Assembly: GCA_020356005.1 (NCBI GenBank) | Contig: CP070629.1 | Span: 2,992,765 to 3,044,488, forward strand | Length of the DNA: 51,724 bases | DNA from: Thermoplasmata archaeon | Lineage (GTDB): Archaea; Thermoplasmatota; Penumbrarchaeia; JAEHCK01; GCA-020356005 | Direction: 5' to 3' | Shown here: piece after piece, positions 28,199 to 38,736 of the stretch | How positions within the stretch are numbered: the first letter of the stretch is position 1 | Layout of the letters: each line of letters starts with the position of its first letter | The notes under the pieces: model-generated | Databases searched by the model: none | Seen by the model: the letters and a program-made list of their open reading frames with translations, nothing else | Told to the model about the DNA's origin: nothing | Position numbers and translations under genes: made by a program

Positions 28199-28372
28199 AT
28201 AGCTTTTTTAAAGCTTTCTAATCGCTTCCAGAAGTGCGTCCGACGGTTGCGTCGGCGAAGTGCGTAACGTAATTCGGTTGTGTACTACGGCCGTCAAACG
28301 TCAGACGTGTTACGGTACGCCCCTCGCAACCGTCCAACGTTTACCGCCCTTCTATAAGCGCTTATAATCTCA
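28199..28372. repeat. Copy C of the roughly 175-bp imperfect palindromic intergenic element
   Basis: The left arm reads cgcttccagaagtgcgtccgacggttgcgtcggcgaagtgcgtaacgt and the right arm reads acggtacgcccctcgcaaccgtccaacgtttaccgcccttctataagcg. It lies between the KaiC-like gene and the first permease gene. Confidence 0.75.
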
Positions 28373-29074
28373 CTTAAATGTCTCGAACGCGATTTCGTCC
28401 GCCGCTATAACTATTCCCTGGTCGGTTATTGTGAACGGTCGTATGTGTTCGTCAAAGGATGTGCCCCTCATCTTCTCTATACCGATAGCGCGGATCTTTT
28501 CGCCTGCGGTGGTGGTCGTATAAAGCTTGATAACACCGCGGGCGAGGAAACCTTCCATCGAAGGTGAATTATCATTCGTCTCACAAATAATCAAAGATGT
28601 ACATCTGGCCTCGGTTAAAATCTTCATTATTGAAAGTATCCTGCGTCGACCTCCGGTAGGGTGGTCTTCCAGCATGCGCAGAGTGGATGTCGAGTCCAGT
28701 CCCACACGCTTGTGAGGGTGCCTGCGCAGTTCCTGGACTAACTCCTCCTCAAGGTACGAAAGGCTGAACATATCCGAACCCTCCTTTGTACCCGCCTCGG
28801 GTGAGACATCGAGTATCCTCACCTGACGGGTATCCCAGCCAAACTGCGCCATGTTCTGGCGGATCTCGTCGTAGGGCTCCTCGAGGGTGATATATAATGC
28901 CTCTTCACCTTTTCGTATGCTTTGCATAAGGAACTGCATAACAAAGATGCTTTTACCGGCACCGGGGCCCCCTGAAATTAAATAAGGGCGGCCTTCGATG
29001 AGTCCCCCTTTCAGCATTTTATCTAATCCGGGTATGCCTGTTCGGATTTTACGCAACTCAGGTATCGGTTCCAT
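28370..29074 (-). CDS. Single-domain KaiC/RadA-like (RecA-superfamily) ATPase
   Basis: The segment GIPGLDKMLKGGLIEGRPYLISGGPGAGKSIFVMQF contains Walker A. Walker-B-like RVGLDS is present. The length of 234 aa matches archaeal one-domain KaiC homologs. SD GGTGAT. Confidence 0.85.
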   Translation of the reverse strand: MEPIPELRKIRTGIPGLDKMLKGGLIEGRPYLISGGPGAGKSIFVMQFLMQSIRKGEEALYITLEEPYDEIRQNMAQFGWDTRQVRILDVSPEAGTKEGSDMFSLSYLEEELVQELRRHPHKRVGLDSTSTLRMLEDHPTGGRRRILSIMKILTEARCTSLIICETNDNSPSMEGFLARGVIKLYTTTTAGEKIRAIGIEKMRGTSFDEHIRPFTITDQGIVIAADEIAFETFK

Positions 29075-35309: not shown

Positions 35310-35669
35310 ATGCGAGGTGTTGTTTTGCCACAAGGAATATTAAAATTGATACAACCCAATGGTGATATAATCTATATTGTTTGTGAAGATGTGCCACCAG
35401 CAGATGGTACAGAAGGAAAATTGGTAATCAACGGTGTTAGTCGTAGAGAAGCAACCGTGGAGGGTGGAGAACCTTATAAATTTATTTCCATACCACGAAC
35501 AGCGGATGATAATCTGCCGGTTGTGGACCAAGAAAATATTCTCGAAATCAACCTTACCGAGGATGTTTCCGAGGACCATCTTATACTACCCTACAACGGC
35601 GGTGTACCCAACGTTGAAGTCTCTATAAAATTCAGGACTACTGATAGCGGCGAGGCTCCACCACCGTGA
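35310..35669 (+). CDS. Hypothetical protein
   Basis: 119-aa ORF with no recognisable motif. Coding status rests on ORF length and the absence of a competing frame. Confidence 0.45.
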   Translation: MRGVVLPQGILKLIQPNGDIIYIVCEDVPPADGTEGKLVINGVSRREATVEGGEPYKFISIPRTADDNLPVVDQENILEINLTEDVSEDHLILPYNGGVPNVEVSIKFRTTDSGEAPPP

Positions 35670-35769: not shown

Positions 35770-38736
35770 TCACGATATTAATTCTTCAAGTTCAGTGGTA
35801 ACTACGTCTATGTATTTTACCGCTCCAAGCTTCTTATAAATTTTTAATGCCTCTTGCAGATATCTCCGGCCCTCTACAATAGAGTCGGGGGTCCCCTGTT
35901 CCGCCAGCAGCAGGCCCAGCTGACGGTTACAATCTGCAAGATAGTACGGGACATTCAGGTTTTTTAAAAGTGCTCTACTTCTTTCAAAATATTTGCGGGC
36001 TGTATCCCATACCTTCTTTTGTTTGTTAATGATACCGTAATTCATCCATGCAAGCGCAATCATAGGTTTTTCATCAAGCCTGGTGAAGATCTCCAGGGCT
36101 CTATTGGTGTATTCCATAGCCTTATCCAGCTGGTTTTTGCGTGCGTAGGCTTCAGCGGCATTTGAATACCCGTAACCTTTTACACGGATATTACCAGACC
36201 GCTCAGCGAGTTCAATACATTTTTCATTCGATTCGATTACCTTGTCGAATTCACTTAACTCACAGTAAGTGACACCAATTCCGGCATAAGCCTTGGCTAG
36301 CTCTGAATAATTCTCCGTTTCGGACAGCAATTCTGTACATTTTTTATAATATCTCATTGCCGCTTTATATTCACCATGCTGTGATGAAATTGTTGCTATA
36401 GATCTATAGCCCCTGGCAATTTCATTGGGAGATTCCATTTTTACTGCAAGTTCCATGAAATTCTGATAATATTCCATTGCCTGAAGATGCTCACCCATTC
36501 TCTCATGTACAGAGCCCAGGCCGTAATAACTTTCCATCTGACCGGATTGATAGTTCGATTCCTCTGCAATTGAAAGGCCTTTTTTAAAATGCTCGATAGC
36601 TTCCTTCCAGGCCGAGCGGTACATATGAATCAATCCTGCATAGGTGTATGCATCGGCACGTTTCATGTCATCCTCAAGTTTTTCACTCAATTCCAGTAAA
36701 GCTTTTGAATATTTCAAAGCCTGGTCCCATTCACCGATAAGAGTTTCGAGTTCGGTTAGCTTAACCATAACCTCAGTTTTTTGCATCTTTAATGATAATC
36801 CTTCTGAAGGTTCCGCTCCCATTAGCTCGGTGCTGTCCAGCGCCCATTTGTAGAATGTTGTTGCCTTTTCAGGTGCGAAACCCATAATGGCCTTCTCACC
36901 TGCTCTTATTGCATACCGGAGGCATCGTCTGTAATCCCCGCCGTAATAACAATGCTCTGCAAGCTCATAAAGAACGGGATCAAGATCGTTTTGATATTTA
37001 TCTTCCATTGCTTCCACAGCTTTCGTATGCAGCAGCCTTTTCCGCGATTGCCCAAGACCTTCATACAGCACCTCGCAGATTTTATTATGTGCAAAACGGT
37101 AACGAACGGGCTGGCCGATGCTTGTGGGCAGCTCCTTAATTAATTGAAGCCTGACCAGATCGTCGAGATGCGTGACCAGTAGATGCTCGTGCAGTGCAGA
37201 TACGGTAGATAAAATATCATATTCGAACTCCAGGCCCAGCACCGAAGCACTCTCTAAAGCGATTCTCATGGATTTATCAAGTCTATCCGTTCTGGCGTTC
37301 ACCACATCTTTGATAGAATCGGGTGTGGCGATATCTTTAATATCGCGGCTGAGCGTCCATGATTCGAGCTTTTCATCGTAATAAATAACAGATTCTTCTT
37401 CTAGAGACCGTATGAGCTCTTCAATGAAAAACGCATTACCCTCTGTTTCTTTATAAATGAATTGAATAAGTTTCTTGGGGAATTTCGAACTGGTCAAAAG
37501 CGATTCGATCAGCATACCGGTTTCCTGTTCATCGAAGCGTTCCAGCGTAACTATTTTAACCAATTTTTCAGATGACATTCTATTTAATAGTGTCTGGAAA
37601 GGGTGGGGTTTGATCGGGTCAATCAGGTCCTCGGGCCGGTAGGAGCCGATTATTGCCACCGGCTGGTTCTTTACTGCTCGGGCAAGGTAATGCAGTAGAT
37701 GCAAGGCGCCTGCATCGGCCCAATGTAAATCGTCAATGAACAGCGCAACCGGCTTGGTGGAGGCGATATCAAGAATCTGCTGGGTGATGGCCTCGAAGAT
37801 CCGCTCCCGGCCTTGCTTGAGCACTTCTTCATTCAGCTTACTTCCCGCGGCGGTTGTATCGTTGAACACCTGGTTTCCATCCGGCAGTTCTCCATTCATT
37901 AAATCAATTGAAGTCATATCCCTTTCTATCAATGCCATTTGCTTTTTATCGATGGTGCTAGGGTTTATGGGTATTATTAATATACATTTATGCAGGGCAG
38001 TGGAATCCACGATTTCATTAACGAACCTCAGCATTTTATCAAATTCTACATTACCCATAATATATTCCAGTCCGTCCAGCATGATCACAGTATTTGGCCG
38101 GCTTTTTATAAATGAAGTAATCTCATGCGAGATCTTGGTCAGAGAGGGCGGTATGCACCCCTCTCCACCCTTTTTAGTGAGCCAGAATACCTTTGTACCT
38201 TCGCGCCCGGTGAGGTTCCCCAGCTTTTCTGTGGGGATCCTGGTGATACACAGCCCGTTATTACCGCGGTCTATCAACGCAGAGAACGCAGCAAGTGAGC
38301 GATCAGCTTTGGGCTCCTTTATCATGTAAGCCCCGAATGGCATTTGCGGGTCCTCTGCCAACCTGTTACCAATTACCGGAATCTTGGCTAGCTCGGCTGC
38401 TAAAACATTTTCCTCGGTAACAGCAGCTTCCCGCAGTGTTTTCACAGCCAGATTTTCCTGATCCATTGACCCGACCCAATCCTTCAGAGCGTCGTTGAAA
38501 GGCAGATACGGGTCTGTACCCTCGTAATGAATACAGCTTGCCGTAAGCCAGTTAAAAGATTGACCGGGTTGCCGACTTCGTACCTCATTTATCAGCCTGG
38601 TCTTACCAATTCCGGCCTCCCCGCTAATAAAGATAATTTGCCCCTTTCCTTTACCTGCCAAGTTAAGCAGTGCATTAAGTTCGTCTAACTCCTTTTGCCG
38701 CCCGATAAATTCGGCGGTTTCAGCGATACTGAGCAT
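35770..38736 (-). CDS. STAND-type (AAA_16-like) ATPase with a DUF835-like insertion and a C-terminal TPR array
   Basis: FIGRQKELDEL...ISGEAGIGKTRL contains Walker A at aa 39-46. Walker B ALFIDDLHWAD is at aa 331-341, followed by SYRPEDL and TEGNAFFIEEL. The inserted segment spans about aa 136-278 (GLCITRIP...VFWLT...VIMLDGLEYIM...FVNEIVD...LIIPINP). There are at least 8 TPR-like repeats (A.AY..(L/I)G..Y......A...Y). Confidence 0.85.
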   Translation of the reverse strand: MLSIAETAEFIGRQKELDELNALLNLAGKGKGQIIFISGEAGIGKTRLINEVRSRQPGQSFNWLTASCIHYEGTDPYLPFNDALKDWVGSMDQENLAVKTLREAAVTEENVLAAELAKIPVIGNRLAEDPQMPFGAYMIKEPKADRSLAAFSALIDRGNNGLCITRIPTEKLGNLTGREGTKVFWLTKKGGEGCIPPSLTKISHEITSFIKSRPNTVIMLDGLEYIMGNVEFDKMLRFVNEIVDSTALHKCILIIPINPSTIDKKQMALIERDMTSIDLMNGELPDGNQVFNDTTAAGSKLNEEVLKQGRERIFEAITQQILDIASTKPVALFIDDLHWADAGALHLLHYLARAVKNQPVAIIGSYRPEDLIDPIKPHPFQTLLNRMSSEKLVKIVTLERFDEQETGMLIESLLTSSKFPKKLIQFIYKETEGNAFFIEELIRSLEEESVIYYDEKLESWTLSRDIKDIATPDSIKDVVNARTDRLDKSMRIALESASVLGLEFEYDILSTVSALHEHLLVTHLDDLVRLQLIKELPTSIGQPVRYRFAHNKICEVLYEGLGQSRKRLLHTKAVEAMEDKYQNDLDPVLYELAEHCYYGGDYRRCLRYAIRAGEKAIMGFAPEKATTFYKWALDSTELMGAEPSEGLSLKMQKTEVMVKLTELETLIGEWDQALKYSKALLELSEKLEDDMKRADAYTYAGLIHMYRSAWKEAIEHFKKGLSIAEESNYQSGQMESYYGLGSVHERMGEHLQAMEYYQNFMELAVKMESPNEIARGYRSIATISSQHGEYKAAMRYYKKCTELLSETENYSELAKAYAGIGVTYCELSEFDKVIESNEKCIELAERSGNIRVKGYGYSNAAEAYARKNQLDKAMEYTNRALEIFTRLDEKPMIALAWMNYGIINKQKKVWDTARKYFERSRALLKNLNVPYYLADCNRQLGLLLAEQGTPDSIVEGRRYLQEALKIYKKLGAVKYIDVVTTELEELIS

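What the first reader, a model, noticed from the sequence alone, without database searches (positions are those of the whole stretch)
37903..38331. DUF835-like module inserted between Walker A and Walker B of a STAND/AAA_16-TPR ATPase
In the 988-aa protein at 35770-38736, Walker A (GEAGIGKT) is at aa 39-46. Walker B (FIDDLHWAD) is only at aa 333-341, about 290 residues later. In ordinary AAA_16 proteins I recall a spacing of roughly 100 residues.

The extra segment spans about aa 136-278 and reads GLCITRIP...KVFWLTKK...NTVIMLDGLEYIMGNVEFDKMLRFVNEIVD...CILIIPINPSTIDKKQMALIERDM. This is the pattern I associate with archaeal DUF835. From memory, DUF835 is considered an inactivated KaiC/RecA-like signalling module.

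The protein has no recognisable HTH or effector domain, only TPRs. A domain-in-domain STAND architecture could couple a KaiC-type signal to NTPase switching. A stand-alone KaiC-like ATPase lies 7 kb away at 28370-29074.
Basis: partly seen in the sequence, partly recalled or inferred. Interest (0 to 1): 0.6.

Follow-up and report, generated by a model that had tools for sequence, protein, structure and literature searches.

The report
STAND ATPase with nested dead-KaiC domain
An archaeal signalling ATPase of the MalT/PH0952 type has a complete, ATPase-dead KaiC-like domain (DUF835) inserted in the middle of its nucleotide-binding domain, a conserved but apparently undescribed layout that probably connects this molecular switch to the KaiC-like ATPase signalling network of archaea.

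Summary
The 988-aa ORF at 35770-38736 (-) is a STAND NTPase (AAA_16 NBD, helical and winged-helix domains, arm, TPR sensor). Pfam finds a full-length DUF835 domain (E=7e-31, aa 144-274) between two halves of AAA_16.

Walker A to Walker B is 291 aa here. It is 124-174 aa in the nearest relatives without the insert.

An MSA-based AlphaFold model (pLDDT 88) shows the insert as a separate, confident alpha/beta domain on two disordered tethers. The best PDB match is the STAND-TPR protein PH0952 (6MFV). By order of secondary-structure elements, the insert lies between the ISM helix and helix H2. In PH0952 and MalT that tip is where the TPR sensor latches the NBD shut.

The layout is conserved in about 33 clusters at 90% identity and at least 6 at 50%, apparently all in Thermoplasmata-like archaea. 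The insert is as conserved as the ATPase core and keeps the DUF835 signature. All ATPase motifs are intact.

Two sister subgroups are always encoded next to KaiC-like ATPase genes. The window's subgroup is not: its KaiC gene lies 6.7 kb away behind housekeeping genes.

The protein has no terminal effector. The insert is most likely the module that couples the STAND switch to KaiC-like ATPases, but the direction of signalling is unknown. I rate it a new variant of a known kind.

The parts
35770..38736 (-). Whole gene: 988-aa STAND NTPase (NBD with nested DUF835, HD, WHD, arm, TPR sensor)
   Evidence: ORF and translation. Pfam. AF2 model pLDDT 88, pTM 0.73. Foldseek top PDB hit 6MFV_A, E=3.6e-14.
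38473..38712 (-). NBD N-terminal half (aa 9-88): strand S1, P-loop with helix H1, strand S2, and the ISM helix carrying the conserved DPYLPF motif
   Evidence: AAA_16 stretch 1 = profile 1-104. Model elements E33-38, H45-54, E62-67, H78-84. Invariant G39 E40 G42 G44 K45 Y77 P79.
38599..38622 (-). Walker A GEAGIGKT (aa 39-46)
   Evidence: Translation. Invariant in 60 relatives.
38335..38472 (-). Tether 1 (aa 89-134): poorly conserved, partly disordered, with two short helices
   Evidence: pLDDT below 50 at aa 89-107. Mean pairwise identity 0.32, against 0.62 for the flanking domains.
37903..38334 (-). Nested DUF835 ('iKaiC') domain, aa 135-278. It is a 6-stranded alpha/beta fold with no P-loop, and it keeps a Walker-B-like strand VIMLDGLEY.
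   Evidence: PF05763 E=7e-31, full length. pLDDT 87-94. Identity 0.62, equal to the NBD core. Family signature residues G161, R166, W185, L186, D221, G222, E224, Y225, F232 and P259 are shared with 28 non-nested DUF835 domains. No GxxxxGK[ST] motif in the segment.
37831..37902 (-). Tether 2 (aa 279-302): disordered and the least conserved part of the protein
   Evidence: pLDDT below 50 at aa 282-299. Mean pairwise identity 0.14.
37537..37830 (-). NBD C-terminal half (aa 303-400): helix H2, strand S3 with Walker B, strand S4 with sensor-1 Arg367, strand S5
   Evidence: Second AAA_16 stretch. Model elements H303-327, E330-335, H342-354, E360-366, E394-397. Invariant or near-invariant D335 D336 W339 D341 Y366 R367.
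37714..37749 (-). Walker B strand and motif (aa 330-341, VALFIDDLHWAD)
   Evidence: Translation. D335/D336 conserved in 60 relatives.
36817..37536 (-). Helical domain, winged-helix domain and arm (aa 401-640), with GxP motif G433-N434-P435 and invariant His570 and His595
   Evidence: Model secondary structure. Invariant columns. Foldseek alignment to 6MFV spans 930 columns.
35773..36816 (-). TPR sensor array (aa ~641-988, about 17 helical hairpins)
   Evidence: TPR_12, TPR_1, TPR_2 and TPR_MalT matches. Model helices 643-987. PDB TPR hits.
28370..29074 (-). Stand-alone single-domain KaiC-like ATPase with intact Walker A and B. It is a candidate partner but is not specifically linked to the STAND gene.
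   Evidence: PF06745 E=6e-55. Motifs. It is 6.7 kb away with DUF362, RFC, EMC6_arch, CCA-adding enzyme, 2'-5' RNA ligase and PvlArgDC genes in between. It is 90% identical over the 114 residues aligned to its partial counterpart at the end of the syntenic relative's contig.
35310..35669 (+). Small convergent ORF (119 aa, no family match) immediately downstream. It is conserved at this position in 3 subgroup-A loci and could be a partner (low confidence).
   Evidence: Similarity to the small ORFs downstream of subgroup-B genes is not supported.

Best explanation
The gene encodes a functional MalT/PH0952-like STAND switch: AAA_16 NBD, helical domain, winged-helix domain, arm and TPR sensor.

A whole DUF835 domain is inserted into its nucleotide-binding domain. 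DUF835 is a KaiC/RecA-like fold that has lost its P-loop ('iKaiC'). The insert hangs on two floppy tethers in the connection between the ISM helix and helix H2, just before the Walker B strand.

Shown here:
- the architecture;
- its conservation in a family;
- the intact ATPase motifs;
- the independent folding of the insert;
- purifying selection on the insert.

Inferred:
- The protein has no effector at either end, so the nested DUF835 is its coupling module to KaiC-like ATPases.
- The TPR array senses a signal, and the NOD exchanges ADP for ATP and multimerises head-to-tail, as in MalT and APAF1.
- This frees and clusters the DUF835 domains. They sit at the NBD tip that the TPR sensor caps in the resting state.
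- The clustered domains then recruit or regulate KaiC-like ATPases. Signal could also flow the other way (see the first rival).
For: Architecture:
- Pfam gives DUF835 at E=7e-31 between two AAA_16 stretches.
- The same order AAA_16-DUF835-AAA_16-TPR is seen in homologs.
- Walker A to Walker B spacing is 290-319 aa with the insert and 124-174 aa without it.

Fold:
- The AF2 model has pLDDT 88. The insert scores 87-94 and the tethers below 50. The NBD strands S1-S5 re-form.
- The Foldseek top hit is 6MFV, the PH0952 STAND-TPR protein.

Active switch: Walker A, Walker B, sensor-1 Arg and GxP are invariant or nearly so.

Selection on the insert:
- Insert identity is 0.62, equal to the NBD core, against 0.14-0.32 for the tethers.
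- The DUF835 signature residues are retained.

Position:
- In PH0952 and MalT the ISM, ISMb and H2 helices form the NBD tip capped by the TPR sensor.
- MalT ISMb mutations M96T and H102Y are gain-of-function.
- STAND effectors are normally 'located at either protein end' (PMC6468293).

KaiC link:
- Subgroup C genes are always preceded by two KaiC-like genes on the same strand (5 of 5 loci).
- Subgroup B genes are always followed by a convergent small ORF plus a KaiC-like gene (3 of 3 loci).
- Other relatives fuse KaiC-superfamily domains to the N-end (P0081) or C-end (P0098, P0115) of an unsplit AAA_16-TPR.
- In this genome 3 of 11 DUF835 genes lie within 10 kb of a KaiC-like gene (P=0.034).
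- DUF835 is listed as an iKaiC output domain of archaeal response regulators (PMC5847659).
Against: - No KaiC-like gene is adjacent in the window's own subgroup A: none in L093, L130 or G186:C145. In the window and L094 it is 6.7 kb away behind housekeeping genes.
- The KaiC/RecA relationship of the insert could be tested only weakly here: hhalign probability 13%, FlaH E=0.007-0.14. It rests mainly on the literature label.
- No model coordinates or PAE were available, so contact between DUF835 and the TPR or NBD is not shown.
- The direction of signalling is undetermined.
Confidence: 0.5

Rival explanations
1. Input or latch model. The nested DUF835 is a regulatory input, not an output. It occupies the ISMb position that in MalT and PH0952 makes the autoinhibitory NBD-sensor contact. 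Binding of a KaiC-like ATPase or another partner to DUF835 would make or break the latch and so gate nucleotide exchange. The TPR array would then act as the scaffold or output.
For: - The insertion site is between the ISM helix and H2.
- In PH0952 and MalT this is the sensor-capped tip, and ISMb mutations are gain-of-function (PMC6468293).
- The insert is placed between Walker A and Walker B, close to the nucleotide site.
- KaiC-like genes neighbour subgroups B and C.
- A second class of ~100-aa insert uses the same site, which suggests a regulatory socket.
Against: - In response regulators DUF835 sits in the output position (REC-DUF835; PMC5847659).
- In this genome DUF835 sits in the cytoplasmic transmitter position of membrane receptors.
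- The long disordered tethers argue against rigid allosteric coupling.
- This model would leave the protein with no effector at all.
Confidence: 0.25
2. Passive decoration. The DUF835 domain landed in a permissive disordered loop and is kept as a structural or self-association module, for example to help oligomerisation, with no link to KaiC-like ATPases.
For: - In relatives without the insert the same loop is a variable, partly low-complexity linker.
- Other inserts occur at the same site.
- Subgroup A has no adjacent KaiC gene.
Against: - The insert is as conserved as the catalytic core, and its family-wide signature residues are retained.
- KaiC-superfamily domains recur with this STAND clade in three different topologies.
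- KaiC genes are strictly adjacent in subgroups B and C.
Confidence: 0.15
3. Antiviral STAND (Avs-like defence NTPase) whose insert is a novel effector.
For: Many prokaryotic STAND-TPR proteins are defence proteins (general knowledge). There are faint PADLOC hits to generic TPR and STAND_TPR models.
Against: - No defence family matches beyond generic TPR.
- The gene lies in a conserved housekeeping block that runs from TBP to PvlArgDC, the CCA-adding enzyme and RFC, shared with a relative whose STAND protein is 59% identical over the N-terminal 420 residues.
- It carries no nuclease, protease or other toxic effector domain.
Confidence: 0.05

Closest known systems
PH0952 of Pyrococcus horikoshii (PDB 6MFV) and E. 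coli MalT: STAND ATPases with a TPR/SUPR sensor
   Same: Both have an NBD-HD-WHD-arm-TPR layout. 6MFV is the best structural match (Foldseek E=3.6e-14). Both carry Walker A and B, sensor-1 Arg and GxP. An ISM helix follows S2. The ADP/ATP switch with head-to-tail multimerisation is expected to be the same (PMC6468293).
   Different: PH0952 and MalT carry a DNA-binding effector at one end, and only the short ISMb helix lies between ISM and H2. Here there is no terminal effector. A 144-aa DUF835 domain plus two tethers (about 215 aa in all) occupies that connection. A sequence profile did not reach 6MFV; the relationship is structural.
DUF835 / 'iKaiC' output domains of archaeal signalling proteins (REC-DUF835, REC-PAS-DUF835, receptor-TM-DUF835)
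   Same: It matches the same Pfam family over its full length and above the cut-off. It has the same signature residues as 28 free or receptor-attached DUF835 domains. It lacks a P-loop. It occurs in the same lineages, Thermoplasmata-like archaea.
   Different: The known architectures put DUF835 at the C-terminus after an input domain (PMC5847659; L082). Here it is nested inside another NTPase domain.
Archaeal KaiC-like ATPases as 'signal transduction hubs' (Makarova, Galperin & Koonin 2017, cited in PMC5847659)
   Same: The same superfamily and the same idea: active and inactivated KaiC-like domains connect varied sensor modules. KaiC-like genes are adjacent to the nested STAND in subgroups B and C.
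   Different: That paper is not in the held library, so I could not check whether it mentions a STAND-nested form. No KaiB is present in this genome. No circadian-type KaiABC system is implied.
Relatives with terminal KaiC-superfamily fusions (P0081: 2x DUF835 + AAA_16-TPR; P0098 and P0115: AAA_16-TPR + C-terminal KaiC PF06745)
   Same: The same STAND clade is combined with the same superfamily of domains.
   Different: In those proteins the AAA_16 domain is unsplit and the KaiC-like domain sits at an end, the canonical effector position.

Membership tests
STAND NTPase (AAA_16, MalT/PH0952-like) | P-loop NBD with Walker A GxxxxGK[ST] and Walker B hhhhDD | tested here: met
   GEAGIGKT at aa 39-46 and LFIDD at aa 332-336. 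Both are invariant in 60 relatives. AAA_16 E=4e-24.
STAND NTPase (AAA_16, MalT/PH0952-like) | NOD architecture: NBD followed by a helical domain (GxP motif) and a winged-helix domain, plus a sensor-1 Arg | tested here: met
   R367 follows strand S4. G433-N434-P435 is present. The model shows helical and winged-helix elements at aa 403-560. The Foldseek top hit 6MFV_A aligns over 930 columns.
STAND NTPase (AAA_16, MalT/PH0952-like) | C-terminal repeat sensor (TPR) | tested here: met
   TPR_12 E=2.5e-27, plus TPR_1, TPR_2 and TPR_MalT, at aa ~650-950.
STAND NTPase (AAA_16, MalT/PH0952-like) | Effector domain at the N- or C-terminus | tested here: not met
   The NBD starts at aa 9 and the TPR array runs to the last residue. 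No HTH or enzyme family matches. This is the respect in which the protein departs from the usual layout.
STAND NTPase (AAA_16, MalT/PH0952-like) | ADP/ATP-dependent closed-to-open switch and multimerisation | not testable with these tools
   Needs biochemistry (SEC or native MS with ADP or ATPgammaS).
DUF835 (Pfam PF05763, 'iKaiC') | Match to the family model above the curated cut-off over its full length | tested here: met
   107 bits against a cut-off of 33.1, covering profile positions 5-136 of 136.
DUF835 (Pfam PF05763, 'iKaiC') | Family signature residues (G..CITR, WL, DGxEY, F, P..P, E) | tested here: met
   These residues are invariant in 20 nested domains and 79-100% conserved in 28 non-nested domains.
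DUF835 (Pfam PF05763, 'iKaiC') | KaiC/RecA-like fold without a functional Walker A | tested here: inconclusive
   No GxxxxGK[ST] motif in aa 135-278. The model shows a 6-stranded alpha/beta fold. The register against KaiC is plausible but weak: hhalign probability 13%, FlaH E=0.007 in NCBIfam and E=0.14 in PDB.
Active KaiC-family ATPase (PF06745) | Match to PF06745 with Walker A and catalytic residues | tested here: not met
   The insert does not match PF06745 and has no P-loop. The neighbouring gene at 28370-29074 does meet this test.
Anti-phage STAND (Avs and related, PADLOC) | Match to a defence-system protein model, or location in a defence island | tested here: not met
   Only generic TPR hits; STAND_TPR scores E=0.005 and 13 bits. 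The gene lies in a housekeeping syntenic neighbourhood.

The most novel reading that the evidence does not exclude
The ISM-to-H2 loop at the NBD tip of archaeal MalT-like STAND ATPases may be a plug-in socket that has repeatedly taken up small NTPase-related signalling modules. DUF835/iKaiC was taken up at least once and perhaps twice, and an unrelated ~100-aa module in another subfamily. These modules would replace the ISMb sensor latch. The STAND switch would then be gated by, or report to, trans-acting KaiC-like ATPases through a domain inside its own ATPase core. That would be a wiring principle for STAND proteins not yet described, and a direct physical bridge between two major archaeal signalling systems.
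Probability: 0.25. Interest if true: 0.75.

Novelty: new variant of a known kind. Interest (0 to 1): 0.55.

Why it matters
STAND ATPases (MalT, APAF1, NLRs, Avs) are described as carrying their effector at one end. Here the only candidate effector or regulator sits inside the nucleotide-binding domain, at the position where the TPR sensor latches the NBD shut in MalT and PH0952.

DUF835 domains are abundant in archaea (11 genes in this genome alone) but have never been studied experimentally. The proposal that KaiC-like ATPases are archaeal signalling hubs is still largely untested.

This family offers a compact soluble protein in which an iKaiC domain is tied to a well-understood ATP switch. 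In its sister subgroups the candidate KaiC partners are encoded next door. That makes the question 'what does DUF835 bind and do?' directly testable by pull-down, AF-multimer and insert-swap experiments.

It is also a clear natural case of domain insertion into a P-loop NTPase core without loss of the catalytic motifs.

Tried and rejected
- The single-sequence AlphaFold model of aa 1-482 was useless (pLDDT 36). The MSA-based model replaced it.
- Sequence searches of PDB did not reach the relevant structures. The full protein found only TPR proteins. The NOD profile A5 found only a spurious Windbeutel hit, not 6MFV. The insert, alone or as profile A3, found nothing significant; FlaH scored E=0.14-1.
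- hhalign of the insert profile against four KaiC-like neighbours was weak (probability 13%).
- The genome-contig scan with the family alignment was swamped by bacterial AAA_16 proteins and returned no clearly nested locus. The genome search was used instead.
- I tested whether the small convergent ORFs downstream of subgroup-A and subgroup-B genes are one family. This was not supported (BLASTP E=0.066; hhalign probability 1.6%). A word-based search with the window's small ORF found only itself.
- KaiB was searched in the genome and is absent.
- The defence reading was rejected.
- Makarova et al. 2017 could not be read because it is not held.
- The overlapping antisense ORF at 37736-38329 (+) of 197 aa is a shadow of the real gene. 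It is low-complexity and Ser/Leu-rich, and I did not pursue it.
Full report
**1. Observation**

The ORF at 35770..38736 on the minus strand encodes 988 aa. Walker A GEAGIGKT is at aa 39-46 and Walker B FIDDLHWAD at aa 333-341. The reported coordinates 37903-38331 equal aa 136-278.

Pfam finds DUF835 (PF05763) at aa 144-274 with E=7.4e-31 and 107 bits against a cut-off of 33.1. The match covers positions 5-136 of the 136-position model. AAA_16 (PF13191, E=4e-24) matches in two stretches, the first ending at aa 124 = profile position 104/167. The remaining matches are TPR families at aa ~650-950. No HTH or enzyme family matches. NCBIfam adds only weak FlaH-like hits on the insert (E=0.007).

**2. 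It is a true insertion in a conserved family**

A search with aa 1-420 returned about 32 clusters at 90% identity. They are 30-59% identical to the query, 874-1006 aa long, cover 87-100% of the query, and carry PF05763 plus PF13191. They are followed by AAA_16-TPR relatives of 810-870 aa that lack PF05763 and cover only the flanks.

- The distance from Walker A Lys to Walker B Asp is 290-319 aa in 30 insert-bearing members and 124-174 aa in 30 non-nested relatives.
- Precomputed domain order in homologs on their contigs is AAA_16 - DUF835 - AAA_16 - TPR.
- An exhaustive profile search of 1.84 billion representatives at 50% identity found six full-length nested representatives: P0015, P0019, P0134, P0156, P0154 and P0167. 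All six were confirmed by Pfam. There were also fragments.

The family is real but small.

**3. Distribution**

Among 401 genomes of the window's phylum, full-coverage matches occur in all four sampled genomes of the same order. One of these has two paralogs. Matches at 28-30% identity also occur in six genomes of one other family of the same class. One of those more distant proteins has a divergent DUF835-like insert below the Pfam cut-off (E=7e-7).

Public names for relatives are 'Thermoplasmata archaeon' and 'Thermoplasmatota archaeon'. They are annotated only as 'DUF835 domain-containing protein', 'tetratricopeptide repeat protein' or 'predicted ATPase'.

**4. Structure**

With a 60-sequence alignment, AlphaFold2 gives mean pLDDT 88 and pTM 0.73. 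The NBD elements are:

| Element | Residues |
|---|---|
| S1 | 33-38 |
| P-loop / H1 | 45-54 |
| S2 | 62-67 |
| ISM-type helix (conserved DPYLPF motif) | 78-84 |
| Low-confidence stretch | 89-107 |
| Short helices | 108-117, 123-127 |
| Insert | 135-278 (pLDDT 87-94) |
| Low-confidence stretch | 282-299 |
| H2 | 303-327 |
| S3 (Walker B) | 330-335 |
| S4 | 360-366 |
| S5 | 394-397 |

The insert has six strands alternating with helices. The P-loop core is therefore predicted to re-form around a separately folded lobe held by two flexible tethers.

The best PDB match of the whole model is 6MFV_A, the STAND-TPR protein PH0952 (E=3.6e-14, 930 aligned columns). Sequence profiles did not reach it.

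**5. Where the insert sits**

The PH0952 paper (PMC6468293) makes four relevant statements.
- Two helices, ISM and ISMb, lie between S2 and H2.
- The TPR sensor caps the NBD tip formed by ISM, ISMb and H2, which is an autoinhibitory contact.
- MalT ISMb substitutions M96T and H102Y are gain-of-function.
- STAND effectors are 'located at either protein end'.

By order of secondary-structure elements, the DUF835 domain lies in the ISM-to-H2 connection, at the ISMb position. This mapping is an inference from element order. I could not superpose coordinates.

**6. The host ATPase is intact and the insert is under selection**

Walker A, Walker B (D335, D336), R367 after S4, the GxP motif (G433-N434-P435) and two histidines (H570, H595) are invariant or nearly so in 60 relatives.

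Mean pairwise identity within the window's subgroup:

| Region | Identity |
|---|---|
| DUF835 insert | 0.62 |
| Both NBD halves | 0.62 |
| HD-WHD | 0.58 |
| TPR | 0.51 |
| Tether 1 | 0.32 |
| Tether 2 | 0.14 |

The nested domain keeps the residues that are also conserved in 28 free or receptor-attached DUF835 domains. These are G161, R166, W185, L186, P197, D221-G222-x-E224-Y225, F232, P259 and E271. It has no GxxxxGK[ST] motif. Its VIMLDGLEY strand aligns with the Walker B strand of KaiC-like proteins, but only in a weak profile comparison (probability 13%).

Galperin et al. 2018 list DUF835 as 'iKaiC', an output domain of archaeal response regulators in Methanomicrobia and Thermoplasmata (PMC5847659).

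**7. Evolution**

In a tree of the NOD with the insert removed, three nested subgroups (A = window type, B, C) are each monophyletic at 100/100. Subgroup A is sister to a non-nested clade (93/90), with B outside them (94/77). C lies elsewhere with weak support.

In a DUF835-domain tree, the A and B inserts group together (91/87), while the C inserts group with a non-nested domain (96/90). Well-supported branches force at least two changes.

The simplest reading is one insertion in the A+B ancestor with later loss in the sister clade, plus a separate event for C. That sister clade retains unusually long, low-complexity linkers of 142-174 aa. With 150 columns in the domain tree this is not settled.

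A second, unrelated insert of ~100 aa occupies the same site in 16 other relatives, for example P0082, which has a split AAA_16 and no Pfam match on the insert. The loop looks like an insertion hot spot.

**8. Genomic context**

In the window the gene is monocistronic. It lies between an archaemetzincin gene and TBP upstream and a convergent 119-aa ORF downstream. Beyond that come PvlArgDC, 2'-5' RNA ligase, CCA-adding enzyme, EMC6_arch, the RFC small subunit and DUF362. A single-domain KaiC-like ATPase with intact motifs follows, 6.7 kb away.

The whole block is syntenic in the relative carrying P0002. There the KaiC fragment is 90% identical over the 114 residues that align, while the STAND protein is about 60% identical. 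That proximity is therefore weak evidence of a functional link.

Context by subgroup:

| Subgroup | Neighbouring KaiC-like genes | Loci |
|---|---|---|
| A (others) | None adjacent | L093, L130, G186:C145 |
| C | Two KaiC-like genes directly upstream on the same strand, 5 of 5 | L096/L097, L129, L131, G186:C129, G129:C37 |
| B | Convergent small ORF plus a 303-320-aa KaiC-like gene downstream, 3 of 3 | L095, L128, G094:C16 |

In the one subgroup-B neighbour that was read (L095, P0123) the Walker motifs are degenerate.

Relatives also fuse KaiC-superfamily domains to an unsplit AAA_16-TPR. P0081 has two DUF835 domains at the N-end. P0098 and P0115 have PF06745 at the C-end.

The window's genome has 11 DUF835 genes, mostly at the cytoplasmic end of membrane receptors. 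Three of them lie within 10 kb of one of the 12 KaiC-like loci listed for this genome, out of 14 matches (randomisation P=0.034). There is no KaiB and no match to defence families.

**9. Mechanism**

Shown:
- an intact STAND switch;
- a nested, independently folded DUF835 domain under purifying selection;
- its position between ISM and H2;
- recurrent gene-level and fusion-level association of this STAND clade with KaiC-superfamily domains.

Inferred: the DUF835 domain is the interface to KaiC-like ATPases. My preferred version (confidence about 0.5 for the coupling as a whole) runs as follows. The TPR sensor binds a signal. The NOD opens, binds ATP and multimerises. The tethered DUF835 domains, released from under the sensor and clustered, then recruit or regulate KaiC-like ATPases.

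The main rival reverses the direction. A KaiC-like partner binds DUF835 at the ISMb position and gates the switch. A passive-decoration reading and a defence reading are less likely. Nothing here tests these directly.

**10. Comparison and novelty**

In mechanism and membership this is a STAND NTPase of the MalT/PH0952 type, and the insert is a member of DUF835. It departs from the usual STAND layout in two ways: it lacks a terminal effector, and a whole domain sits inside the NBD.

Only one paper in the held library mentions DUF835. None combining KaiC, STAND and insertion describes this layout. Makarova et al. 2017 could not be checked.

Earlier reports of this same scan describe the same family in other genomes. 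I re-derived their main claims independently: the nested layout, 6MFV as closest structure, and the insert at the latch position. I found that 'fixed housekeeping position' holds for only part of subgroup A.

Verdict: a real, conserved, apparently unpublished variant of a known kind, of moderate to good interest.

Noticed in passing
Relatives P0082, P0069, P0078, P0088, P0093, P0096, P0101, P0114 and others (not in the window): A second discrete class of AAA_16-TPR relatives has a Walker A to Walker B spacing of 220-259 aa (16 of 139). An insert of ~100 aa with no Pfam match sits at the same ISM-to-H2 site. JGI labels one such protein (P0116) 'Roadblock/LC7/MglB family'. The same loop therefore hosts at least two unrelated inserted modules.
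   Followed up: partly
Own genome G000:C1:2164542-2164997 (loci L091 and L092), outside the window: A 1295-aa ORF combines a HerA/FtsK-like ATPase part, a DUF835 domain that is itself split by a low-complexity stretch, a coiled coil and a winged-helix-like tail.
   Followed up: no
Own genome: G000:C1:2025839-2026231 with 2026758-2027420, and 2235689-2236090 with 2238701-2239372: A stand-alone 213-aa DUF835 protein sits 0.5 kb upstream of a KaiC-like ATPase gene. A 421-aa DUF835 protein lies 2.6 kb from another. In all, 3 of the 11 DUF835 genes in the genome are within 10 kb of a KaiC-like gene (randomisation P=0.034).
   Followed up: partly
window 35310-35669 (+); L094:11021-11353 (-); L130:11627-11974 (-): A small protein of 110-119 aa with no family match lies convergent and immediately downstream of the nested STAND gene in three subgroup-A loci (32-55% identity, shared C-terminal LPYNGG motif). 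Small ORFs at the same position in subgroup B share only a short LP.NG motif, and homology is not supported.
   Followed up: partly
Subgroup C relatives (P0022, P0023, P0032, P0033), C-terminal ~170 aa: Instead of a long TPR array these proteins end in an unannotated alpha/beta region (for example ...GIYICINHPS...FIMVDNISNL...GIVIMDDKTN). It looks like another degenerate KaiC/DUF835-like domain. Pfam finds nothing there.
   Followed up: no
P0131-P0137 and P0153 (1684-1796 aa), from the representative search: These proteins are made of two complete AAA_16-TPR STAND units in tandem, without DUF835. They were among the best-scoring hits to the family profile.
   Followed up: partly
P0014 (WP_455392094.1) and P0130 (WP_455393158.1): Two members of this archaeal family carry RefSeq names assigning them to '[Eubacterium] cellulosolvens'. 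This is probably archaeal contamination in a bacterial assembly.
   Followed up: no
L095:11441-12352 (-), protein P0123 (beside subgroup-B STAND genes): The KaiC-like neighbour has a lysine-rich N-terminal tail and degenerate motifs: GDHFSGKE in place of Walker A, and RIMFNS with Asn in place of the Walker B Asp. It may itself be inactive. Its closest relative in the window's genome is part of a 715-aa ORF at G000:C1:3572737-3573456.
   Followed up: partly
window 37736-38329 (+): A 197-aa ORF lies antisense to the DUF835-coding segment. It is Ser/Leu-rich and has no support, so it is almost certainly a shadow ORF of the real gene.
   Followed up: no
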